Shown here one piece after another: positions 5,517 to 52,087 of a DNA stretch of 64,000 nt (position 1 is its first letter; the number at the start of each line of letters is the position of its first letter). A model generated the notes under the pieces. The model searched no databases, had not been told where the DNA came from, and saw only the letters and a list, made by a program, of their open reading frames with translations. A program made the position numbers and the translations under genes. Source of the DNA: the human T2T-CHM13v2.0 reference genome, Homo sapiens; the NCBI RefSeq assembly GCF_009914755.1, contig NC_060944.1; one strand, given 5' to 3'.

Positions 5517-6047
5517 ATAACTGAGAACATGTGGTATTTGGCTTTCTGTTCCTACATTAGTTTGCTAAGACTAATCGCCTCCAGCTCCACTCATGTCCCT
5601 GCAAAGTACATGATATCATTCTTTTTTTATGGCTGCAAAGTATGTTGTATATGTACCACATTTTCTTTATCCAGTCTATCACTGATGGACATTTAGGTTG
5701 ACTCCATGTCTTTGCTCTTGTGAACAGTGCTGCAATGAACATAGACATGCACGTGTCTTTATAATAGAACAATTCGTACCCCTTTGGGTATACAACCAAA
5801 GTAATGGGATTGCTGGTCAGCTAAATGATAAGACCACATGGACACATAGAGGGGAACAACACAAACTGGAACCTATCAGAGGGCGGAAGGTGGGAGGAGA
5901 GAGAAGATCAGAAAAAATGACTATTGGGTACTAGGTTTAATACCTGTGTGATGAAATAATCTGTACAACAAACCCCCATGACACACATTTACCTATGTAA
6001 CAAACCTGCACATGTACCCATGAACTTAAAATAAAAGTTAAACAAGT
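5517..6047 (+). mobile_element. 5'-inverted, truncated L1PA (older L1PA, twin-priming structure) with 14 bp TSD
   Basis: 5517-5819 antisense L1 ORF2 end/3' UTR; 5820-6047 sense 3' UTR ending cttaaaataaaagttaaa; flanks aaactagaagtctt (5503-5516) and aaaatagaagtctt (6048-6061). Confidence 0.92.
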
Positions 6048-6399
6048 AAAATAGAAGTCTTTTATGTGTTTTTGCTCTGTGAAAGTTCCTGGAACTAGTT
6101 GATTTTAAAACCAGTCTTTTGGCAAGTGAAAATTTCTTTTAACAGCAGAAAGGAAAAGCATGCATGAAGGTCAGGTCAGTATTCTTTATTAACCAGTTCT
6201 TTTATTGTCTAGTATGAACTTGCGGGGATTTGGGTAATGTAGAAAGATGGCGAAGAGAGAGCATTGATCTGTGTATGAGGATTCCCAGCTCTGACATTAA
6301 ATGTGACCTCCCTGGAGTCACGTTCCCTCTTTGCCAATGGAAGAACTCAGACAAGTCCATCTTTTTCAAGTTGTTCTGTAATATCCTAAGTCCTTGCCA

Positions 6400-13660: not shown

Positions 13661-15056
13661 AAAAAGTTCTTGGAAGTTTTGTCAATTTAAGAAACGCTCC
13701 ATGATTATCAACAATAATCCCTCAATAACTTTTTTCTTCTCTGCAGTTAGAAGGCAGCCTGAAATTTTGCATTTTCCCCCTGAGAGCTCCTCCACACTGC
13801 TCCTGAAATGGCTGTCATTCTACTTATTCACTGGGGTTCTCTTTTTCCAGGCTCAACTACCTGGTGGGGTTTTTTTTGTTGCCATTGTTGTTTTTTTTTG
13901 TCTTTTTAAACAACTTCTCTCGTTTTCCAGGGCAAGTTAGAGGTGTTAAGTTCCCTAATGTGCTACTAGGCTGCAAATGAAGAATTTAACAGCCCATGGG
14001 AGGACCAATTAGAATCAATTATGACATAATTGAACTGCCTTGTATTCCTTGTCGGTATAGAACTTCTTTCTGGAAGGAAGATTGTGCCTTTCTTCACACT
14101 ATGATGGAGTAGCTGCATGAGTTCACAGGCAATGGTTCTGACCTAATCAATTCTAGAATAGAGTTTCGTGGAGCTAGCATGCCTTGTGATATCAGGGCCA
14201 GAGAAGCTCAGCTCAAGGAAGCCCTGACTTTCTCATTTCTGCCCTCCACCCCCCAGTTTTTTTTCCTTTCTTAAGAAAGCTGCTAAATTCTTACAAAGTA
14301 TATAAAATACCTTACATGGGCCTCTGGAAAGTCAGGACACTCCACCTATTGAAGAAGTGAGAAGGAAAGATTGAGTCTGAGGTCACCATCCATTTCCCTC
14401 CATTTTCTTCATTATTGGGCGTGAGAGATCAGACAACCATGAGAAGATCAACTCTGTCCACTTTTCCCAGTAACCGTCCTCTGGAATCTGGCCTTTGGGC
14501 CATTGGTGATGGGAGCCAGTAGTTGCATGATTTCCTCTTTCTTGCTACACCCAGCCTCATCAGTCCTGGGTTGTAGCTTATATGGCTTCCAAAGGCTTCA
14601 GTCCATGATTAAGTAATCGGTCTCCCCAGCAGCAGCCGTCTCTATAACGCAGGCTCTTTTCAACTTCCTTTCTTGACTCTTCCTGTTTTTCATTCTTCCT
14701 CCCTGGAAATCTATACCCTAATAAAATAAAATAAGGTAAGCCCTCAATTTCACCCTCAGCTTTGTAATGAACCCAGGGAAGACCAATTAAACTTGTGAAA
14801 ATGGTAAAACGAGAACAGGTTTTGACTTATTTGCATATTTTTGAATATTAGCAAATAGTTGAAGAGATCTAGTGACCAGTTCCTGACACAGGACTCTAAA
14901 GTAATAGAAGGAAAACTACTCTATGGCTCCGAATTTTGTGTTGTTTGAATATCCATGTCCAGTCACGTATCTGTTATATGCCTTCCTAGTTCCATTCAAC
15001 TTCCTTTTTTATATCCTGGAGCAATTTCCTCCATCACTTACTCTCTATACAGAGCT

Positions 15057-15515
15057 TGTTTTGGTTTGGATCCCTCAGAAACAGATCCTGAGATAAGGAT
15101 GTATGTGCAAGTAGTTTATTCTGGAAGTGATCCAAGGAGATGCTTGGATTCAGTGATCCAAGTTAGAGGAGTGGGGAGGTGAGGGGGAGAGAAAAGCAGG
15201 GAATAAAATATATGTCAATGTGGAACCCAATCCTGCTGGGGAAACTTCAGGAGACAATGTAGAACACAATTTGGAATTATCCCACTAGAAGGGCAAGGGA
15301 GCTGGAGTATTTACACACCAACTCCTATCAGTTGTATTGGTTGAGGGCTGCTCCTCGGGACAGATGGGATTAATTCTCTGTCACCTCCAGCCTGCCCTGT
15401 ATGTAGGCAGAGAGGTTTGGGAAGCCAGAAAGAGTCCTAGGGCATCTGGAAATCAAGCCATTGTTCTCTATGACAGTAAAGCTGATAGGATATTGGTGGG
15501 ATACAAGAATGCTAT
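15057..15515 (-). mobile_element. LTR33 (ERVL) solo LTR
   Basis: cagaaacagatcctgagataaggat...gtgcaagtagtttatt...ggagctggagtatttacacaccaactcc...attggttgagggctgctcc. Confidence 0.85.
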
Positions 15516-15689
15516 CAAGTTTACCTCCCTTAAGTCAAGAGAGCAAAGAGGAGCTCTATGTCTAGTGGTCTCTGGGAGTTCCAGCTTTCAGTAATCATCA
15601 GTTCTGGCTTCAGAATAAAACCACCTAGGAAACTTTTAAAAAATGCTATCACCCAGACACCTCACCAGAAAACTAATACAAGTGAAAAA

Positions 15690-16615
15690 TAAGCGTATAA
15701 AAGAGTACTCAACATCATATGCTATCAAGGAATTGCAAATTAAAACAATAGACTATCACTACATTCCTATTAGAATGGCTGAAGTTCAAAACACTGACCA
15801 TAACAAATGCTGGTGAAGATGTGGAATAACAGGAACCCTCATTCATTGCTGGTGGGAAAGCAAAATGGTACAGCCACCTTGGAAGAGAGCCTGGCAGTTT
15901 CTTACAAACTAAACATAGTCTCACCATATGATCCAGCAATAGTGCTTCTTGGTATTTACCCGAATGATTTAAAAACATATGTCCACACAAAAACCCCTCC
16001 ACAGAAATGTTTATAGCAGCTTTATCCATAATTGCCAAATGTGGAGGCTTCAATGGAAAACGTCCTTCCATAGTTGAATAGATGAACAAACATACAAATG
16101 TGCATCTATATGCATATATACAATGAACTATTCAGCAATAAAAGGAATGAGCTATCAAGCCATAGAAACGTATGGAAGAAATGTAAGTGCATACTGCTAA
16201 GTGGAAAAGAAAAACTCAGAAAAGCCTACTATATGACGTTCTCTAAAGGGTAAAAAGCTACAGGCACCAAAAAGATCAGGGATTTCTAGGAATTTGGAGG
16301 AAAGAGTGGAGAGATGAACAGGTGGAACACATGGGGATTATTAGGGCAATGAAATGGTGGATGTATGACATTATGGATTTGGCTAAACCCATAGAACAGT
16401 ATAACACAAACAGTAAATCTTATTGTAAACTATGCACTTTAGCTAACAATGATGTATCAGTTTTGGCTCACTTGTAACAAATGTACCATGCCAAAGCAAA
16501 ATGAAAATAATAGGGGCAACTGTGTGAAGGCGGGGAGAGAGTATATGAAAAGTCTGTGCTTTCTGTTTAATTTTTCTGGAAATCTAAAACTGCCCTAAGA
16601 GATAAAGTCTAATTT
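15690..16615 (+). mobile_element. L1MC (L1MC1/2-like) 3' fragment
   Basis: ORF2 C-terminal remnant (15807 ORF ...PYDPAIVLLGIYP...) and 3' UTR ttgtaacaaatgtacca...ataaagtcta. Confidence 0.9.
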
Positions 16616-16979
16616 TATATAGAACATACTCCATAAATTAAAATTTCCAGGGGTGAAAACCAAACATTAGTATCTTTTGCATGATCCCTGGGAAACCCTA
16701 ATGTGCAGGGAGAGTTCAGTTGCACTGGGGTAAGTGTACAGAAGAGTTGAATCTCTCCTGGTTGTCTTTGTGCAAAGGTCTTTCCCTTGGAGGCAGTTGG
16801 TCTCAGTAGCATGCTGTTTAGGGAACAAGAGAATTTAAAAATTAGTGTAGAATCTGCAATTTTTAATTCTAAGGAGCCCATACATGCAAAACAGGTCACA
16901 TACAGTTATGAATCATTAATAGTTTAACTACTTATTAAAATATATGCCTGTAATTTCATTAAGGTAAAAAATGTAGCCT

Positions 16980-17155
16980 TTGCTGTTCCAGAATGCTCCT
17001 CCAATCAGTATCACCTGGGAGCTTGTTAGCAATGCTCTTTCCTGGGTTCCCTCTCATTCTATGGAATCAGAAACTGTAGGGGATGAGGCCCAGGAATCTG
17101 GGTGTTGTCAGCCTTTCCAAGTGAAACTTAAGTGCCAATTCGTGAAAGTCGCTGT
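16980..17155 (+). mobile_element. MER5A MITE
   Basis: atcagtatcacctgggagcttgttagcaatgc...gaatcagaaactgtaggggatgaggcccaggaatctg. Confidence 0.85.
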
Positions 17156-17181
17156 TTTGAACAGAGGACGAAAGTGTAAAG

Positions 17182-17394
17182 CAGTGGTTCTAAAACTTGG
17201 CTGTACAATAAAATGACCTGGGAAGATTTAAAAAAACAGCAATGTTAAACATATAGTGATGTTTAAAAAATATTGACATTTTGGTTCTATTTCCCCAAAT
17301 TGTGATTTAATTGGTCTGCAGTATGTTTTGGGCAATGGGATTTTCAAAAACTCCCCAAGTGAGTCTAATGCGTAGGCAATCTGAGAAAAACTGG
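17182..17394 (+). mobile_element. MER5B MITE
   Basis: cagtggttctaaaacttggctgtacaataaaatgacctggg...aaaaactccccaagtgagtctaatg...tgagaaaaactg. Confidence 0.8.
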
Positions 17395-17796
17395 TGCAAA
17401 GACAATAATCAGCAAATTCTGGGCCTGCTGTCACCAACAGGTTGATCTCCAAAACTCACTTCCTTGAAACCCTCTCAGGAAACTTCTCCCAACCCGGAAT
17501 ATTTCCATCTTCCCCTGCCTCCATGCTCTCCAATTCATTATTACTAATACCACATTTTTGCCTCTGGTTCTTTTTCTCTTTCATGGTCTTAGGAAATGCA
17601 AAGTGCATCATCAGGGAAGTGTTAATAATGCCCATTTATTTTGTGATTCTGCCCCAAAAGACTTTCCTGCAGCCCAGTTATATAGTGCATATTACAAGAA
17701 CTCACCCTGTAAAGAGAGGTGAGTTTAAGCGCTTTAAAGAGAGTTACTGTAATATGCACTAATGCTAATAAAAAACATTTAAATGGTGCTGGAATA

Positions 17797-19922
17797 TTTT
17801 CTTTTGCTAACTTTTATTTTAAGTTCAGGGGTACAGGTGCAGGTTTTTTACTTGTGTCATGAGGGATTTTGTGTAGAATATTTCATCACCCAGGTATTAA
17901 GCTTAGTACCCATCAGTTGGTTTTCTTGGGACTCTCCCTCCTCCCACCTTCCATCCTCCAAAAGGCCCCAGTGTGTGTTGTTCCCCTCTATGTGTCCATG
18001 TGTTCTCATTGTTTACCTCCCACTTACAAGTGAGAACATGTGGTGTTTGGTTTTCTGTTCCTGTGTTAGTTTGCTAAGGATAATGACCTCCAGCTCCATC
18101 CATATCCCTGCAAAGGACATGAGCTCATTCTTTTTCATGACTGCATAGTATTCCATATTGTATATATACCACATTTTCTTTATCCAGACTATCATTGGTG
18201 GGCATTTAGGTTGACTCCATGTCTTTGCTATTGTGAATAGTGCTTCAGTGAACATTTGCATGCATGTGTCTTTATAATAGAGCAATTTATATTCCTTTGG
18301 GTATATACTCAGTAATGGGATTACTGGATCGACTGGTATTTCTGCCTCCAGGTCTTTCAGGAATTGCCACACTGTCTTCCACAATGGTTGAACTAATTTA
18401 CACTCCCACCAACAGTGTATAAGTGTTCATTTTTCTTCACAACCTCGCCAGCATCTGTTATTTGACTTTTTATTAATAGCCATTCTGCCTGGTGTGAGAT
18501 GGTATCTCATTGTGGTTTTGATTTGCATTTCTCTAATGATTAGTGATGCTGAGCTTTCTTTTCCATATAATTGTTGGCCACATGTATGTCCTCTTTTGTA
18601 AAGTGTCTGTTTATGTCCTTTGCCTACTTTTTTATGGAGTTGTTTGGTTTTTTCTTGTAAATTTAAGTTCCTTATACATGCTGGATATTAGACCTTTGTT
18701 AGATGCATAGATTACAAAAATTTTCTCCCATTTTGTAGGTTGTCAGTTTACTCTGTTGATAGTTGTTTTCACTGTGCAGAAGCTCTTTAGTTTGATTAGA
18801 TCCCATTTGTCAATTCTTGCTTTTGTTGCAATTGCTTTTGGCATCTTCATCATGAAATCTTTGCCCGTGCCTATTTCCTGAATGGTTTTGCCTAGGCTGT
18901 CATCCAGGGTTTTTATAGTTTTGGATTTTACACTTAAATCTTTAATCCATTTTGAGTTATTTTTTTGTATATGGTGTAAGGAAGAGGTCCAGTTTCATTC
19001 AGTCTTCTGCATATGGCTAGCCAGTTATCCTAGCACCATTTATTGAATAGGAAATTCTTTCCTCGTTGCTTGTTTTTGTCAGGTTTGTTGGATATCAGAT
19101 AGTTGTAGGTGTGCAATCTTATTATTGGGTTCTCTGTTCTGTTCCATTTGGTCTTTGTGTCTTTCTTGTACAGTACCACGATGTTTTGGTTACAGTAGCC
19201 CTGTAGTATACATTGAAGTCAGGTAGCATGATGCCTCCAGCTTTATTCTTTTTGTTTAGGATGGCCTTGGCTATTTGGGCTCCTATTTGGTTCCCTATAA
19301 ATTTTAAAACAGTTTTTTTCTAATCCTATGAAGAATGTCAGTGGTAGTTTAATGGGAATAGCATTGAATCTTTATATTGCTTTGGGCAGTAGGGCCATTT
19401 TAACAATGTTTATTCTTCCTATCAATGAGCATGGAATGTTTTTCCATTTGTTTGTGTCATCTCTGATTTTTTTGAGCAGTGGTTTGTAGTTCTCTTTGGA
19501 GAAATCTTTAACCTCCCTAGTTAGCTGTATTCATAGGTGCTTTATTTTTTTGTGGCAATTGTGAATGGGAATTCATTCCTGATTTGGCTCTCTGCTTGAC
19601 TGTTGTTGGTGTATAGGAATGCTAGTGATTATGGCACATTGATTTTGTATCCTGAGACTTTGCTGAAGTTGTTTATCAGCTTAGAAAGCTTTTGAGCTGA
19701 GATGATGGGGTTATGTCATCTAGATATAGGATCATGTCATCTGCAAACAGGGATAGTTTGACTTTCTCTCTTCCTATTTGAATGCCACTTATTTATTTAT
19801 CTTGCCTGATTGCCCTGGCCAGAACTTCCAATACTATGTTAAATAGGAGTGGTGAGAGAGGGCATCCCTTTCTTGTGCCTATTTTCAAGAGGAATGCTTC
19901 CAGCTTGTGCCCATTCCGTATA
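17797..19922 (-). mobile_element. 5'-truncated older L1PA (about L1PA13-16), 2.1 kb
   Basis: Continuous antisense 3' UTR and ORF2 (123 aa remnant MWKTVWQFLKDLEAEIP...); truncates at tgcccattccgtat. Confidence 0.95.
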
Positions 19923-20878
19923 ACAGCACTGTATTTTCTACAAGCTGGAGATGTTCTTATAACATTTCTCTTCTCTTTTTTTCTCCTTCCAAAAATTGAT
20001 AAGAATAGGGCTTTGGGGTTTTGTGTTCAAGGAGAAAAACTTTACTAGGGATTCCAAAGAGGAAGATGATCAGGGAAGAATAATAGGACCCAGAATCTCA
20101 TAGCAGGCTGTCATGGAAATAAGAGTTGTTTTGGAGAGGGGGCATGATGGGAATGGATCTCTGAGTCAGATAAAAAAAAGAAGTTTTGAGGGTTTTCTGT
20201 GTCTGGCAGAGACCCAGGCTGGCTTGCATACGGAAGACGAAGACCCAGGCTGGCTCGCATATGGAAGACGAGGCTGGTTTGCATACCAAAGACGAAGGAA
20301 TTGACCCTGGTGGCTAAAGGTGGCTGAAAACATGCATTGTGGCCTTGAGAGCATTGGAGGGGAATTCTGTCAGCAGGTCCGCTGTCAGTGGAATAGACCA
20401 TGTGTGGCGTGCCTCTGAGTATGTTAGTTCCCTATTGCTTGTAACAAATTGCCATAAATTTAGCAGCATAAAACAACACACAGTTAATATCTCATGGTGG
20501 ATTCCGTGGGTAGGGAGTACATTATGGCTCAGTTGAGTGCTCTACCCAGGGTCTTACTGGCTGCAATCAAGATGTCAGCTAACAATAATGTTTTAGAATT
20601 GGCTCTTTTGTAGCAAATGTACCACAGCCAAAGCAAGATGTTATAATAGGGGCAACCCTTCTTTCCAAACAACTCATTTTTCCAAGACAGCCTCCTAAGG
20701 GCTTCTATTAATTATTCTTCCCTGATCATCTTCGTCTTTGGAACTCCTAGTAAGTTTTTTTTTTTCCTTGAACACCAAACCTGAAAGCCCTATTTTTACG
20801 AAATTTTGGAAGGAGGAGGGAAAAAGAGAAGAGAAATGTTCTAAGGACAGCTCCAGCTTTTAGGAAATACACTGTTGT
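19923..20878. repeat. Inverted repeat, ~220 bp arms (19923-20141 / 20656-20878)
   Basis: aacatttctcttctcttttt vs aaaaagagaagagaaatgtt; gaagatgatcagggaagaataat vs attattcttccctgatcatcttc; about 80-85% identity by eye. Confidence 0.95.
20210..20296 (+). repeat. 31 bp tandem repeat, ~2.8 copies
   Basis: agacccaggctggcttgcatacggaagacga / agacccaggctggctcgcatatggaagacga / ggctggtttgcataccaaagacga. Confidence 0.95.
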
Positions 20879-21328
20879 GTTCCATTCTGGAGCTTGGGGT
20901 CTTCTTCCAAGATCACATGGTGTTTGGCAAAATGCAGTTTCTCCTGGTTTTCTTGCTGCTGTCAGGTGGGTCCACTCTTATCTCCTATGTGCCACCTGCA
21001 GTTCTTTACCACATGATCCTTTTAAAATGTGACAACTGACTTCTTCAAGGCAGCGGAACAATCTTTTGCCTCAGAGATGGCTTAGTCCCCCTTTATATGG
21101 GCTTTCACCTCATCATTATAGGCCCACCCTGGAATATCTTTCTTTACTCAAAATCAGCTCGCTTGGGATTTGAATTACCTCTGCCAAAATCACTTTACCT
21201 TTGCAATATTGTAATGGCTAGAGGCAAGTTGCAGATCTCAGCCACACTTAAGAGGAGGGGATTACATGAATGCGGGGATACCAGGAAGTGGTAGTCATTG
21301 GGAGTTAGCCTAGGGTCTGTCCCTCACA
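20420..21328 (-). mobile_element. MLT1E-like MaLR solo LTR interrupted by a ~300 bp insert (20581-20877)
   Basis: tatgttagttccctattgcttgtaacaaattgccataaatttagcagc...ctagggtctgtccctcaca; TSD ctgag (20415-20419) / ccgag (21329-21333). Confidence 0.85.
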
Positions 21329-21783
21329 CCGAGGTAATGCAAGGTACAGGCCAGAAATGACATTAGAATTAGGTCACAGGGGAGCACTGGTAAAGTCAAT
21401 GACGTAGTGGGCCAAAGGCCTGGCCCTTTTCCTATTTCATAGCTTCTAAAAGACCCGCAATTCTTGCATGAGGCCATCAACAGAGACAGAGGGCCTCAGT
21501 AATGATGAGCATTAACAAAAATCATTCCAAACTTGGATGTAAGATCAAAGGTGAAAGGCTGGATTATTCAGTGTCATACAGGAATAAAGAGTCCACCCAG
21601 GGATTAGGCAATACATGTTGTTTAACTAATTGTTCCCTATGGATTAGAAGTCCCAGACGTAGTGAAGCTACTTTGTATCTTGCAAATTTTTGTTCAGTGT
21701 ACAGATGCAAATTATTTCTACAGTGGAGCAGATAACTTCAAAGGGTATGATTTATCACCCTGGTAGGCATTAACACATTTTGT

Positions 21784-22117
21784 ATCTAACCCAGCAATAT
21801 CCTAACCTGCCTTTATTACCTCACCTGTAATAGAGACTTGAATTACAAGTCTTGAATTGCAAAACAGCAACAAGAAAACCATGAGAAACTGAATTTTGCC
21901 AAATACCATGTGATCTTGGAAGAAAACTCCACGATCCAGAACAGAACACAGCCCAGCTGACACCTGGATTGGAGCCTGCGAGGCCCTCAGCAGAGCACCC
22001 AACTGAGCCATAATGGACTCCCTGACCCACAGGAACCATTACAGGTGGTTTCTTTATGAACTCACTATAACAGGTGAGTTAATAAAGGCAGGTTAGGATA
22101 AGATTGCTGGGCTGGAT
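21784..22117. repeat. ~55 bp inverted repeats (21784-21838 / 22060-22117) enclosing an inverted copy of the upstream MLT1 (21864-22038)
   Basis: cccagcaatatcctaacctgcctttattacctcacctgtaatag vs ctataacaggtgagttaataaaggcaggttaggataagattgctggg; interior is the reverse complement of 20498-20580 + 20876-20962. Confidence 0.95.
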
Positions 22118-22739
22118 TTAACATCATACTGTTTCTCTCAGTAATTAGTAAGTTGAATAAATCTTTGACCCATGTTCATTTTATATTTACCTGATAATTA
22201 TTTTATCCTCTTGAAAATTATATTTTAACAATGGGAAGGAATTCTCCATCAACCAGGCAGGAGAATACAGTTTATTTGATTTTGAAAAATAAAGAAAAAT
22301 GATTTCTTTTTAACCCAATGGGGTAGGGGTACAATTCATCCTCTGCAAAATCCTCTCAAATTCTAAGAGGAAATAATGTTCTTTTGAAGGAAGGAAGGAA
22401 ATAAATCCTCCAATAGCCACATAACTTTTTCCCTGTAGACTTATAAAAGCCTCATCTGTGGTTTGCAGGCTTAAGACAATAATACTTAACCACCAGATCT
22501 GGTAGTGATTGTAGCCCTGGCAAAACATTGAGACCCAAGTCAAAGATTCATTGTGAGGGTAAAGCATGCAGGTTAGAGCCTCTGTCAGAAATGCTCTGCT
22601 GAAAATATCTCAGACTGAGCACTCGCTGATATGACAGATTTCTAGCTAAATCTTTTCATTTTTTTCAAGCATGGTTTGACCTGGTTCTTGGCATATATAG
22701 TGTAATCCAATTAAATAAAAATTTAATCTGTTAAATTTA

Positions 22740-22840
22740 TTTATAAATATATATATATCCTTCATTATGTATAGTTTATTTTATTCATTTTATATACATG
22801 TATACACACATGTGTGTATGCATGTGCATATACATGTGTT
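22740..22840. repeat. (TA)n/(RY)n low-complexity tract
   Basis: atatatatatat and tatacatgtatacacacatgtgtgtatgcatgtgcatatacatgtg. Confidence 0.8.
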
Positions 22841-23054
22841 ATGGTAATTTTGACTTCATGCTATTTTCATCTCTTACATTTACTTTACAACATAATGCTT
22901 GGATAAGACATGCCACCACTGCATATGGACCCAAGCCTGGCGTTGGATGCCACTTCACAAATGCTTGGTCTGTGTTGCATAACATATTTTCACAGAAGTT
23001 CAGGAAAGAACTGAGTCTTAGGCTGAGCCCTACTTGGACTTCTGAGTAGACCTT

Positions 23055-23500
23055 GTGGTGCCACCCAGAGTCCGTTTATAGGGCTGATACATGCATTGCT
23101 CAGCTACCATGGATGTTGCTTCTTAAAGGCACATAGCTGTCCTCCGTTTGTCTTCCTGAGAGAATCATCTTAATCAACAGAAGCTGTCTTTCCCAGAAAT
23201 ACTTGGAGATTATTCCCTTTAACCCTCAAAGTTGGGGCAGCCTGGACCCAATGATTGACTGATATCAAGGTGCAGAGCTGGCCCCATTTGATTCATAGGG
23301 TGGTCACTCAGTGACACTCTGGAGCTTTCTGTGGGCCAGGCTGAGACTGGATTTTAGCTGACATCACATCCTTACTTGGCTCCTTCACTGTCCTATCCCA
23401 CATCACTCATTCTCCTTCTCCTCAGAGTGCCCCACCCAATGGTCACTTTGCACAAGAATCCCCATCTCAGGCTCTGCATTTGGGGAGTGCAGCATAAAAC
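23055..23500 (+). mobile_element. LTR16 (C-like, ERVL) solo LTR
   Basis: ggggcagcctggacccaatgattgactga...gggccaggctgagactggattttagctga...cacaagaatccccatctcaggctctgc. Confidence 0.8.
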
Positions 23501-23719
23501 TTTCTGAGACAAAAACCTTCTGAGCTGATTTTCCTACTGCAAGTAATCCCAGAATGTTGACAGTGTGTCAAAGGAAGTACAGTTCCTTTCCTAGTAGTGA
23601 TACTTCCTGTATTTAAGAGGGTAATAGTACCTTCCATATAACTACATTTCTACCTCTTTAATCCCTGACACTATCTTATCCATAGACATTTTTGGAAACT
23701 AATTCTATTACATCAGCGA

Positions 23720-23935
23720 AGTGGGAAATTCTTTGGACATGAAAGCAGTGGACTTTGTTTCTCAGCCAAACTCTACGGCAGACTTGCCATGTGGATGCCG
23801 CAGGACCCTACAATGGCGGCTCATTTTCACCATTGATGAAATGGGAATTGTCCAGCTGTCCAGACCACTTTGCAGATTACTGGGAGTGGCTAATATGAAT
23901 GGATGGTGAATATAAAAGTATTTTGAGAACTTCCA
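23720..23935 (+). mobile_element. MIR remnant
   Basis: tggacatgaaagcagtggact...ctcattttcaccattgatgaaatgggaat...tataaaagtattttgagaact. Confidence 0.55.
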
Positions 23936-23939
23936 AGTA

Positions 23940-24510
23940 TGTTAGGATAAAGTACTTTTGTTTGTAAGAGAATATAGTATAATTGCAACTGACTTGAGGG
24001 AAAAAAAGTGACTATAAAAGCTTGTCTGTCTAAGAAGTTCACAGATTGAAACTGAGATCAGATTTAGGAGCTGTCATCAATGGAATTTTTCTTTACTTTT
24101 ATCTTTGGGTAATTCTTACTTCTTTTTAGTTTTATTCTCAGGCACAGGGAAGTAAATGGCTTTAGTTAGCACATCTCCATCCCCCCACCACCACTACTCA
24201 GGCATAAGAATATCCTTAGAACTTATGACTCAGGGGAAAAGAGAACAATTTTCTGAGTAACTCTGGCAAAAATCATGGGAAAAACTCCCATGGGACAGGA
24301 TTGTATCACATGCCTATCCCTGAACCAATCACTGTGGCCAGGGATGGTAATATACGAATTGGCTCAAACTTGGCTTACTGACCTATTCTAGGGTCATGGG
24401 ATCTAAATCCACTATGCCATATGGAATAAGCAGGAAGGCTGTGGAGTAAGAAGTGATGATTTTCCCCCCCAAAATAGATACTAGATCAATAACCATATGT
24501 CCAGTGTTGT
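23940..24510 (-). mobile_element. Old MaLR LTR (MLT1J/K-like)
   Basis: tcacatgcctatccctgaaccaatcactgtggccagggatg; tacttttgtttgtaagaga start; strand tentative. Confidence 0.6.
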
Positions 24511-42841: not shown

Positions 42842-45800
42842 GAGGAGGCAGATCAAGATAACCAAATAGAACCCTCAAGAGATCTTCCCCCACTCAGGAA
42901 CACAAAATTGAAACAGACAAAAAAACATAAAAGAAAGTTCTCCACACAAGAAAGCACCTTCATAAGAACAAAAAACCAGGTGAATGATCACAGTATCTTG
43001 TTTTAAAATCATATTAATAAAAGGAGCATTGAAGAGGATAGGAAAAACTGTCTTGAATTGCCTATATTATTCCTCCCACATCCCCAAGCAGCACTGTGTG
43101 GTGGGAGAGAAAATCTGTGTGTTTGGGGCAAGAAGAGTACAATTATTGTAGGACTTTGCTTTGGAACTCAATGCTGCCCTGTCCCAGCATAAAGCAACAC
43201 AGGGCAGAATTCAGCTAGTGTCCTCGGAGGGAGCATTTAGACCATCCCTAGTCAGAGGAAAATTGCCCATCCCCAGAGGTCAGAGTCTGAGTTCTGGCTA
43301 GCCCCACTACCATGGGCTAAAAGGCTCTGGGGTCCTAATTAAACTAGAAAGGCAGGAAAGGCCACAAGGACTGCAATTCCTGGGCAAGTCCTGGTGCTGC
43401 GATGAGCTCAGAGCCAGTGGACTTGGGGTGCATGCAACCCAGTGAGACAACAGCTGGGGCTGCCAAGGAAGTGGTTTTTTTGCCCCTCCCCCCAACTTCA
43501 GGTAGCACAACTCACAGCTCTAAGAGGAAAGGAAAAAGTGAAGAGGACTTTGTCTTGCAGCCTGGATACCAGCTCAGCCACAGTGAAATAAGGCACCAAG
43601 CAGAGTCCTGATGTCCCTGTTCTAGGTTACATCTAGGGCATTTCTAGACCCATCCTGGGCCAGAAGGAAATCAACTGCCCTGAAGGAAAGGACCTAGTCC
43701 TGGAAGAATTTACCACCTGCTGACTAAGGAGCCCTTGGGCCTTGAGTAATCATCAGCAGGAGCCAGGCAGCAGTTGCCACAGGCCTTAGGCAAGGCCCAC
43801 TACTGTGCTGGCTTCAAGTGTGACCCAGCACATTTCCAGCTGTGGTGGCCATGGGAAGAGACTCCTGCTTGAAGTGAGGAGAAAAGAGTAAAAAGAACTT
43901 TGTCTTGCAATTTGGGTGCCAGCTCATCCACAGTAAAAAAAGCATGAAGCAGGTTCCTAAAGGTCCCCATTCCAGGCCTTAGGTTCTAGAGGGCATTTCT
44001 AGACCTGCCTTAAATCCTGAGTGAGTTTCAAAGAAGGAAACCCACTGCTATGAAGGAAGGAGGCCCAAGCCTGGTAGAACTCACTACCTGTTGACTAAAG
44101 AGTCCTTGATCCTTGAATAATCATCAGCAGTAGCCAGACAGTAGTCACCATGGGCCTGGGGCAGTGGTGGCCATGGGGAAAAACTCCCTCTTCTTGAGGA
44201 AAGGAGAGGAACAAGTAAACAATACTTTGTTTTGCAACCTGAGTATCAGCTCACCCCTAGTAAAACAAAGCACCAAGTAGATATATAAAGCCCTCAATCC
44301 TATGCCCTAGCTACTGGGTGGCATTTCTAGGCCCCCCATATACCAGAAGCAAACCTGCAGCACTGAAGGGAAAGACCCATTCATGACAGGATTCACCAAC
44401 TGCTGACTAAAGAGCCCCTGGGCCTTGAATAAAAATCAGCAATGTCCAAGCAGTACTTGCTGTGGGCCTTAGGTGAGATTCAGTACTATGCTGGCTTCAG
44501 GTGTGACCCGGCACAGTTCCAGCAGTGGCGGCCATGGGAGTGTTTGCATCACCCACCTCCAGGCTGCTCGCACAGAGATAGACACCATTTGTGGTGGTAA
44601 TCCAGGGAAATTTCCCAGATCTTACCCAAGACCACCAAGGCAATACCTCTATGAGACTGCAAGAGTCACAGTGTTTGGCATGCCTTCAAATGCACATGCA
44701 GCTGCAGTGAACAAAGACAGATCTCAACACTAAATTCCCTTTGAATACTTGGAAAGTCTTCTTAAGAAGGACAGGAACAAGCAAGCCAGACAGTGAATAT
44801 CAGAGTAAGTACCTAGCTCTTCAGTGCCCAGACATTGATAAAAATCCACAATCATCAACATTGTCCAGAAACACATGACCTCACCAAACAAACTAAATAA
44901 GATACCAGTAACCAGTTCTAGAGTGACAGAAATATGTGACATTTCAGATAATTCAAAATAATTGTTTTGAGGAAGCTTAATGAAATCCAAGATAACGCAG
45001 AGAAGAAGTTCAGAATCCTATTGAATACATTTAACAAGGAGATTGAAATAATTAAAAATAATCAGGCAGAAATTCTGGGGGTGAAGAATTTAATTCACAA
45101 ACTGAAGAGTGCATCAGAGTCTCTCAACAGCAGAACTGATGAAGAAGAATAAAAGATTAGTAAGCTTGAAGACAGGCTATTTGAAAATACACACAGGAGT
45201 TAACAGAAAAAAGAATAAAAAATAATGAAGCATACCTACAGGATCTAAAGAATAGCCTCAAAAGGGCAAAGCTAAGAATTATTGGAGGTAGGGGTAGAAA
45301 GTTTATTCCAAGGTATAATAACAAAGAACTTTCCAAACCTAGAGAAAGATATCAATATTCAATTACAGAAGGTTATATAACACCAAGCAGATTTAACCCA
45401 AATAAGACTGTCACAAAACATTTAATAGTCAAACTCTTAAAGGTCAAGAATTAAGAAGGGCTTCTAAAAGCAGCAAAAGAAATAACGTAGCATATAAAGG
45501 AGTGCCAATACAGCTGGCAGCAGATTTCTTAGTGGATCTTTACAGGCGAGGAAAAGTGGCATGATATATTTAAAGTGCCGAAGGGGGAAAAGAAAACTTT
45601 TATACTAGAATAATGTTTCTAGTGAAAATATCCTTCAAACATGAAGGAAATACAAAGACTTTCCTAGACAAACAAAAGCTGAGGAATTTTGTCAACACCA
45701 GACCTGTCATTCAAGAGATGCTAAAGAGAGTTCTTCAATCTGAAGAAAAAAGATATTAACAAGCAATAAGATATCATCTGAATATGCAAAACTCACTTGC

Positions 45801-51821: not shown

Positions 51822-52087
51822 ATCACTGAGGGTCAAGAGGGTCATTTGGCCTGGGCTACACAGTTTCAAAGGGTTTTTATTTTAGATTTTTCAAAATTAT
51901 CTTTAGATTACATTACTTATGGGGATGGCATTGGGGTATAAAAGTGAAAGAAAATCACTGAGGGCCAAGAGGGTCATTTGGCCTGGGCTACACAGTCTCA
52001 GAGGGTTTTTATTTTAGATTTTTCAAAATTATCTTTAGATTGCATTACTTATGGGGTTGGCATTGGGGTATAGAAGTGAAAGAAAAT
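51822..52087 (+). repeat. 132 bp tandem duplication of unique sequence
   Basis: Copies start at 51822 and 51954; 6 substitutions counted, no indels. Confidence 0.98.

What the first reader, a model, noticed from the sequence alone, without database searches (positions are those of the whole stretch)
19923..22117. Cluster of ancient locally templated copies: fossil multi-switch repair locus
Seen: in 2.2 kb there are four copies of nearby DNA: (x) 20577-20656 = direct copy of 16441-16520; (A') 20656-20878 = inverted 19923-20141; (M') 21864-22038 = inverted MLT1 20498-20962 lacking the x+A' insert; (D') 22060-22117 = inverted 21784-21838. Pairs are similarly diverged (roughly 80-90% by eye). Established: serial template switching (FoSTeS/MMBIR, polymerase-theta templated insertion) makes short, often inverted, locally templated patchworks with microhomology. 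Inference: one or two such germline events were fixed tens of millions of years ago. Repeat masking would hide this by labelling the pieces as independent L1MC/MLT fragments.
Basis: partly seen in the sequence, partly recalled or inferred. Interest (0 to 1): 0.8.

Follow-up and report, generated by a model that had tools for sequence, protein, structure and literature searches.

The report
Fossil patchwork of locally copied DNA
Two small insertions in a human chr20 gene desert are stitched together from copies of DNA lying within about 4 kb, an old scar of error-prone break or fork repair rather than separate transposon fragments; it is a clear but functionally ordinary example of a known mutation type.

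Summary
All four local copies exist at the stated coordinates to within 5 bases.

Evidence that the partners are local:
- A/A' and D/D' are each other's only match in the whole T2T genome.
- M' and the local LTR M are reciprocal best hits genome-wide. They are 82% identical against at most 69% to 27 other family copies, and they are sisters on a tree.
- x is an 80-bp internal piece of a dispersed element. It shares a 3-bp deletion with its source 4 kb away, but substitution support is weak.

The five aligned pieces are equally diverged: 68 mismatches in 514 sites, homogeneity P = 0.90.

Insert 1 (x+A') sits in M between 4-nt and 3-nt microhomologies. Insert 2 is M'+D' with two short spacers that carry micro-repeats.

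Best reading: polymerase template-switch repair of the MMBIR/FoSTeS type, fixed very roughly 30-60 Myr ago, as one event or a short cascade.

New here: the template segments are the ends of the two fragments bounded by the three junctions of the cluster. One of those junctions is the 5' end of a similarly aged L1 with no detectable target-site duplication.

This is a new member of a known kind, and interest is modest.

The parts
15656..16626 (+). Dispersed roughly 1-kb element (L1M-type 3' end by recollection) that contains the x source
   Evidence: 16 of 16 other family loci align to various parts of 15656-16626. The family name was not verified by any tool.
16441..16520 (+). x source (template of the direct copy)
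   Evidence: 12/79 mismatches to 20577-20656. Shares a 3-bp deletion with the copy that 16 of 16 other members lack.
17795..19922 (-). 5'-truncated L1, with its 3' terminus at 17795 and its 5' truncation at 19922, abutting A
   Evidence: Collinear with other L1 copies in the window. Genome hits cover the query up to 19921-19922. No TSD detected. Best genomic relatives are 81-89% identical.
19923..20138 (+). A source, unique sequence
   Evidence: Its only genome-wide hits are itself and A'. 28/210 mismatches to A'.
20418..20580 (+).
   Evidence: Family homology runs from about 20418 to 20580 and resumes at about 20876.
20577..20656 (+). x copy, first piece of insert 1; 20577-20580 (AGCT) is shared with M, a 4-nt microhomology
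   Evidence: Family homology is confined to 20577-20656.
20657..20878 (-). A', inverted copy of A and second piece of insert 1; 20876-20878 (TGT) is shared with M-right, a 3-nt microhomology; 20657-20660 is unassigned
20876..21290 (+). M, right part of the LTR-like element; 20876-20962 is the M-right template
   Evidence: Its best non-self hit genome-wide is M'.
21784..21839 (+). D, unique sequence, partner of D'; its right edge is the left junction of insert 2
   Evidence: The only genome-wide partner is 22059-22117. 6/56 mismatches. Which of D and D' is the original cannot be told from this sequence.
21840..21863 (.). Spacer 1, with a 7-nt hairpin and an 8-nt direct micro-repeat involving the end of D
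   Evidence: Both features together appear in 0.0004 of 5000 shuffles (post hoc).
21864..22038 (-). M', inverted copy of M 20498-20962 without insert 1; keeps 4 bases (21951-21954) missing from M
   Evidence: Sister of M, FastTree support 0.977.
22039..22058 (.). Spacer 2; a 10-mer at 22038-22047, starting on the last base of M', is the exact reverse complement of D 21822-21831
   Evidence: P about 0.014 for such a match in the local 335 nt (post hoc).
22059..22117 (-). D', inverted partner of D and last piece of insert 2
   Evidence: D-M'-D' folds as a DNA hairpin, -74.2 kcal/mol, z = -10.4.

Best explanation
The locus carries two patchwork insertions made by a DNA polymerase that repeatedly left its template and copied short stretches of nearby DNA during repair of a broken chromosome or collapsed fork. 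This is template-switch repair of the MMBIR/FoSTeS type, with Pol-theta-like micro-steps at some joints.

Insert 1 (20581-20875, about 295 bp) lies inside an old LTR (M). It consists of an 80-bp direct copy of DNA from 4.1 kb upstream (x) followed by a roughly 220-bp inverted copy of DNA from 0.5-0.95 kb upstream (A').

Insert 2 (about 21840-22117, 278 bp) lies 1 kb downstream. It consists of a 24-nt spacer, a 175-bp inverted copy of the uninterrupted LTR segment (M'), a 20-nt spacer and a 59-bp inverted copy of the sequence just left of the insertion (D').

Shown: the local origin of A', M' and D' (x probable), equal divergence, and microhomology at the two outer joints of insert 1.

Inferred:
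- The polymerase mechanism.
- That the two inserts arose in one event or a short cascade (my odds about 0.5-0.6).
- The date, very roughly 30-60 Myr, from K2P about 0.146 between partners and a recalled primate neutral rate.

The structure has no sign of function.
For: Local origin:
- A and D have no other match in 3.1 Gb.
- M and M' are reciprocal best hits genome-wide. They are 140/170 identical, against at most 69% to 27 other family copies, with 23 shared derived columns against 14 and 11 private ones.
- M and M' were reciprocal nearest neighbours in 100% of 1000 bootstraps, and are FastTree sisters with support 0.977 and equal branches of 0.107.
- x is an internal 80-bp piece of a roughly 1-kb element, so it is not a retrotransposition product. 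Its top-scoring hit genome-wide is the copy 4 kb away, 77 bits against 67 for the next. The two share a 3-bp deletion absent from 16 of 16 other members.

Junctions and order:
- Microhomology AGCT at M|x and TGT at A'|M.
- The copies are not collinear with one inverted segment. The sources run A, M, D and the inverted copies run A', M', D', so several switches are needed.

Timing:
- Equal divergence: 12/79, 28/210, 22/169 and 6/56, chi-square P = 0.90, pooled 68/514.
- Derived changes are symmetric between copies and sources, 19 against 19. The divergence is therefore mostly later drift, not copying error.

Fine structure:
- Spacer micro-repeats resemble snap-back re-priming.

Precedent:
- Germline MMBIR-type templated insertions with up to five templates are reported in PMC8421209 (passages read).
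Against: - No outgroup sequence was available, so insertion polarity for D/D' and the one-event claim rest on inference.
- x is weakly supported by substitutions alone: reciprocal nearest neighbour in 22% of bootstraps, and L005 is as similar to the x copy as the local source is.
- The x|A' joint shows no clear microhomology, and 4 nt are unassigned.
- The tracts (56-216 nt, from 0.2-4 kb away) are longer and more distant than the templated insertions catalogued in the papers I read. Those were templates within 100 bp and tens of bp.
- ts:tv is 33:35, lower than the 165:78 in similarly diverged L1 pairs (P = 0.004, post-hoc choice of controls). Against all six L1 controls it is P = 0.09. This is unexplained.
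Confidence: 0.8

Rival explanations
1. One event triggered by L1 integration. The L1 endonuclease nick, or the TPRT intermediate at 19922/19923, gave a DNA end. Replication or repair from it was unstable over the next 2 kb and produced both inserts, and the copy of A ends by run-off at that nick.
For: - The L1 5' junction lies within 1 nt of A's left edge (about 0.002 for a uniform breakpoint in 4 kb, post hoc).
- The L1 has no detectable TSD, although a 12-16-nt TSD would have been seen in 76-93% of simulations.
- L1 identity to its best genomic relatives (81-89%) is about the same as that of the duplicated pairs (81-88.5%).
- A, M-left, M-right and D are exactly the four termini of the fragments bounded by the three junctions.
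- L1 ORF2p-made ends are reported to give local deletions, inversions and inverted duplications at the target site (PMC11702581, section 13 read).
Against: - The age match is crude. The best-of-many hits are biased, and the subfamily was not identified.
- The coincidences were noticed after the fact.
- M' is contiguous across the insert-1 site, so at least that template was intact.
- An L1 that landed later next to A by chance is not excluded.
- The L1 lacks a visible poly(A) remnant, which says little either way.
Confidence: 0.3
2. Two or more separate template-switch events at the same fragile spot. Insert 2 came first, and its new inverted repeats (M/M', D/D') destabilised replication and provoked the later break in M that gave insert 1.
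For: - M' lacks insert 1, so insert 2 cannot be the later of two separate events.
- Insert 1 lies inside the segment homologous to M', splitting it 83|87.
- D-M'-D' is a strong hairpin former.
- The divergence of the two inserts, 40/289 against 28/225, leaves room for a gap of several Myr.
Against: - No divergence difference was detected (P = 0.74).
- A single nascent strand copying intact parental templates also explains an insert-free M'.
Confidence: 0.3
3. The pieces are independent fragments of dispersed repeats (LTR and L1 families) that landed near each other, as a repeat-masker table would list them.
For: x and M/M' do belong to dispersed families: 18 and 40 genomic matches listed.
Against: - A and D are single-pair sequences.
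- M' is far closer to M than to any other copy.
- x and M' are internal fragments without element ends.
Confidence: 0.02
4. One larger inverted segmental duplication (a palindrome) later eroded by deletions or flipped by recombination between its arms; or D-M'-D' is a relic DNA transposon with terminal inverted repeats.
For: Three of the four copies are inverted. D/D' flank M' like terminal repeats.
Against: - The order A', M', D' is the same as A, M, D rather than mirrored.
- A' sits inside M.
- D/D' have no other copy in the genome.
Confidence: 0.03

Closest known systems
MMBIR/FoSTeS templated insertions (germline 'MMB-TI', Osia et al. 2021, PMC8421209; passages read)
   Same: Insertions copied from nearby DNA, often inverted, flanked by microhomology, sometimes from several templates (up to five reported), present as inherited variants.
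   Different: That catalogue covers inserts from 10 bp to read length with templates within 100 bp. Here the tracts are 56-216 nt, the templates lie 0.2-4.1 kb away, there are two inserts 1 kb apart, and the event is tens of Myr old and fixed.
Short-range template switches, four-point model (Loytynoja and Goldman 2017, PMC5453318; passages read)
   Same: A switch to the opposite strand and back creates an inverted repeat next to its source, as in D/D'.
   Different: The model covers one switch-and-return over tens of bp. The authors state that they do not model long-range or multiple successive switches, which is what this locus shows.
Polymerase-theta end joining with snap-back or in-trans templated extension (Kent et al. 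2016, PMC4912351; search listing and abstract start only)
   Same: Micro-repeats in spacers 1 and 2 (a 7-nt hairpin, an 8-nt direct repeat, a 10-nt re-copy of D) and 3-4-nt microhomologies.
   Different: The long tracts copied from kilobases away exceed what I recall as typical for this pathway. No test of the enzyme is possible from sequence.
Local rearrangements at L1 ORF2p-generated ends (Mendez-Dorantes et al. 2024 preprint, PMC11702581; section 13 and passages read)
   Same: An L1 insertion whose junction coincides with an inverted duplication of target-side DNA, and no canonical TSD.
   Different: Those are de novo events in cultured cells. Here the link to the L1 is inferred only from geometry and similar divergence, and the copies lie 0.7-2 kb from the L1.

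Membership tests
MMBIR/FoSTeS-type templated insertion | Inserted DNA is a copy of nearby sequence, not of a dispersed source | tested here: met
   A and D are unique pairs genome-wide. M/M' are reciprocal best hits and sisters. x is probable: shared 3-bp deletion, top bit score, but bootstrap 0.22.
MMBIR/FoSTeS-type templated insertion | Microhomology at the switch points | tested here: met
   AGCT (4 nt) at M|x and TGT (3 nt, possibly 4) at A'|M. None is clear at x|A'. So 2 of 3 joints of insert 1. The joints of insert 2 are occupied by spacers.
MMBIR/FoSTeS-type templated insertion | Several templates, both orientations, in one event | tested here: inconclusive
   Several templates and both orientations are shown. 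A single event is only compatible with the data: equal divergence, P = 0.90.
MMBIR/FoSTeS-type templated insertion | Arises during replication or break-induced replication | not testable with these tools
   Sequence alone cannot show this.
Polymerase-theta-mediated end joining | Short templated stretches copied from the immediate flanks (snap-back or in trans) | tested here: inconclusive
   The spacers show such micro-repeats. The main tracts are 56-216 nt and come from up to 4.1 kb away.
Four-point short template switch | One switch-and-return, inverted fragment of tens of bp within the same fork | tested here: not met
   At least 7 long-range switches, or three breaks, are needed. The authors exclude multi-round and long-range cases.
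Independent dispersed-repeat fragments | Each piece is no closer to its neighbour than to other family members | tested here: not met
   M/M' are 82% identical against at most 69% to others. A and D have no family at all.
L1-integration-associated target rearrangement | Rearranged or duplicated target DNA directly at an L1 junction, of the same age as the L1 | tested here: inconclusive
   Junction coincidence within 1 nt, no TSD, similar identity ranges. No outgroup was available to show co-occurrence.
DNA transposon with terminal inverted repeats (for D-M'-D') | Other copies of the element or of its termini in the genome | tested here: not met
   D has only D' as a partner in 3.1 Gb.

The most novel reading that the evidence does not exclude
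The whole cluster is the germline fossil of one catastrophe started by an L1 integration. The L1 nick at 19922/19923 collapsed a fork or left a broken end, and the ensuing unstable repair synthesis switched templates at least seven times within 2 kb, using the broken ends themselves as templates. It would be a natural, fixed example of the L1-induced local rearrangements so far seen mainly in cell culture and tumours, at base-pair resolution.
Probability: 0.3. Interest if true: 0.5.

Novelty: new member of a known kind. Interest (0 to 1): 0.3.

Why it matters
It is a clean, fully resolved old example showing that kilobase-range, multi-template switching leaves fixed scars in primate genomes. 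A repeat table would list such scars as unrelated transposon fragments or unique DNA. If the link to the neighbouring L1 holds, the same search logic could be run genome-wide to measure how often L1 integration caused local patchwork rearrangements in the germline. That logic is: unique local inverted pairs with one edge on a TSD-less L1 junction. The locus itself lies in a gene desert and shows no sign of function.

Tried and rejected
I used the listed identities only.
- L1 target-site duplication: none found. The first try included L1 sequence and gave an 8-nt match inside the L1 itself. The corrected test scored 6, reached by 1239 of 2000 shuffles.
- Further cryptic templated pieces: exact 13-mers between 19880-22200 and 15000-24000 gave only the 31-bp tandem array and one chance-level match, 7 hits against a mean of 2.3 in shuffles.
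- Known RNA families in 15500-23000: none.
- Error-prone copying as the source of divergence: derived changes are 19 in copies against 19 in sources, so rejected. The low ts:tv ratio remains unexplained.
- The first global alignments of x and D failed because of my scoring choice and were redone locally.
- Orthologous primate loci: no collection available here holds them.
- Repeat family names: no repeat library was available.

Full report
**Setting.** The window is T2T-CHM13 chr20:12276001-12340000, and the whole assembly could be searched. The finding lies in a gene desert, and no known RNA family lies in 15500-23000. No repeat library was available.

- The repeat finder and a gapped self-comparison recover every claimed pair.
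- Local alignment gives these coordinates, with mismatches over ungapped sites:
  - x: 16441-16520 to 20577-20656, direct, 12/79.
  - A: 19923-20138 to 20878-20661, inverted, 28/210.
  - M-left: 20498-20580 to 22038-21955, inverted, 12/82.
  - M-right: 20876-20962 to 21950-21864, inverted, 10/87.
  - D: 21784-21839 to 22117-22059, inverted, 6/56.
- E-values against the 64-kb window run from 1.8e-11 to 1.2e-51.
- In a self-comparison of the whole window, 27 pairs lie closer than 6 kb. Apart from multi-copy dispersed repeats and tandem arrays, only these five pieces and one weak 66% pair remain. The cluster is therefore exceptional within its own 64 kb.

- A and D, searched against 3.1 Gb, find only themselves and their local partners.
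- M is a dispersed LTR-like element spanning about 20418-21290, interrupted at 20581-20875.
- M' carries family homology only in 21864-22039.
- M' finds the local M as its best hit genome-wide, and M finds M'.
- In an alignment with the 27 other family copies retrieved as most similar to M' (a conservative sample), M and M' are 140/170 identical, against at most 69% to any other copy. They share 23 derived columns, against 14 and 11 private ones.
- M and M' were reciprocal nearest neighbours in all 1000 bootstraps. They are FastTree sisters with support 0.977 and equal branches.
- The x source lies inside a roughly 1-kb dispersed element at 15656-16626, whereas the copy holds only an internal 80 bp of it. 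That is not what retrotransposition produces.
- The x copy's top-scoring genomic hit is the source 4 kb away. The two share a 3-bp deletion absent from 16 of 16 other members, plus 7 derived columns.
- On substitutions alone the x pair is weak: FastTree support 0.83, bootstrap 0.22, and one other locus is equally similar. I rate x as probably local, helped by its position directly beside A'.

**Anatomy of insert 1.**
- Insert 1 (20581-20875) is x followed by A', inside M.
- The bases AGCT at 20577-20580 belong both to the M/M' alignment and to the x alignment.
- TGT at 20876-20878 belongs both to A' and to M-right.
- These give 4-nt and 3-nt microhomologies.
- The x|A' joint has 4 unassigned bases and no clear microhomology.
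- M' keeps 4 bases (21951-21954) that M lacks at the insertion point.

**Anatomy of insert 2.**
- Taking D as the original, insert 2 is spacer 1 (21840-21863), M', spacer 2 (22039-22058) and D'.
- Spacer 1, together with the end of D, holds a 7-nt hairpin and an 8-nt direct repeat. Both features appear together in 0.0004 of 5000 shuffles.
- A 10-mer at 22038-22047, which starts on the last base of M' and runs into spacer 2, is the exact reverse complement of D 21822-21831. P is about 0.014 locally.
- Both spacer tests are post hoc.
- D-M'-D' folds as a strong DNA hairpin.
- No further cryptic copies of 13 nt or more were found.

**Timing.**
- The pairs are equally diverged, chi-square P = 0.90. 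Insert 1 against insert 2 is 40/289 against 28/225, P = 0.74. Pooled, 68/514 = 0.132.
- From the pooled 33 transitions and 35 transversions I compute K2P of about 0.146, or about 0.073 per lineage.
- With a recalled primate neutral rate of 1.2-2.2e-9 per site per year, this is roughly 30-60 Myr. That figure is an inference, not a measurement.
- Derived changes are symmetric between copies and sources, 19 against 19. The divergence is therefore later drift rather than copying error.
- The ts:tv ratio is 33:35. It is low against the four L1 pairs of similar divergence (165:78, P = 0.004, post-hoc choice of controls) and not significant against all six controls (P = 0.09). I leave this unexplained.
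- M' lacks insert 1. So either insert 2 is older, or both arose in one event in which intact parental DNA served as template.

**Mechanism.**
- The sources lie in the order A, M, D and the inverted copies lie in the order A', M', D'. One inverted segmental duplication cannot explain this.
- The shortest description is a single nascent strand that made these steps:
  1. It left M at 20580.
  2. It copied x.
  3. It switched strands and copied A leftward to 19923.
  4. It returned to M 4 nt beyond where it had left.
  5. It ran on to 21839.
  6. It made micro-switches.
  7. It copied M leftward from 20962 to 20498 on the other strand.
  8. It re-primed briefly on D.
  9. It copied D leftward from 21839.
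  10. It then resumed normal copying.
- This is the logic of MMBIR/FoSTeS. Germline templated insertions with up to five templates are on record, though shorter and with templates within 100 bp (PMC8421209, passages).
- The four-point model of short template switches explicitly leaves out multi-round and long-range cases (PMC5453318, passages).

**New geometry.**
- The left edge of A is, to the base, the 5' truncation point of a minus-strand L1 at 17795-19922.
- Insert 1 splits the segment copied into M' into 83 and 87 nt.
- The right edge of D is the left joint of insert 2.
- So A, M-left, M-right and D are the four termini of the two fragments bounded by the three junctions 19922/3, 20580/20876 and 21839/40.
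- For uniformly placed breakpoints in 4 kb, each of the first two coincidences has a probability of about 0.002. Both were noticed after the fact.
- The L1 has no detectable target-site duplication, although a 12-16-nt one would have been detected in 76-93% of simulations.
- The L1's identity to its best genomic relatives (81-89%) matches that of the duplicated pairs (81-88.5%).
- L1 ORF2p-made ends are reported to cause local deletions, inversions and inverted duplications at target sites (PMC11702581, section 13).
- I therefore give about 0.3 to the reading that an L1 integration intermediate started the whole event, with the copy of A ending by run-off at the L1 nick.
- An L1 that landed beside A by chance, or a cascade in which the inverted repeats of insert 2 provoked the later break in M, remain open.

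**Verdict.** This is a well-resolved, old, fixed example of a known mutational process with no sign of function, so interest is modest. The possible L1 trigger is the one lead worth testing, and comparison with other primate genomes would settle it.

Noticed in passing
window 20210-20295: A tandem array of about three copies of a 31-bp unit (copies 1 and 2 are 94% alike, the third 77%). It lies between A and the LTR M, inside the fragment bounded by the L1 junction and insert 1. It looks younger than the inverted copies.
   Followed up: partly
window 17795-19922: A minus-strand, 5'-truncated L1 with no detectable target-site duplication and no poly-T run before its 3' terminus. A second in-window copy (5819-6053) starts its homology at the same base and also lacks a tail.
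   Followed up: partly
window 51822-52087: A head-to-tail duplication of 134 bp at 95.5% identity, much younger than the cluster studied here.
   Followed up: no
window 43525-44539: Tandemly repeated block of about 340 bp at 65-73% identity.
   Followed up: no
window 21681-21733: Two copies of a 26-bp unit at 82% match, about 50 bp left of D. Possibly another small local duplication near the insert-2 junction.
   Followed up: no
window, the five duplicated pairs: Transitions and transversions are about equal (33:35), whereas L1 pairs of similar divergence in the same window give 165:78. The cause is unknown, and copy-specific error is not supported.
   Followed up: partly
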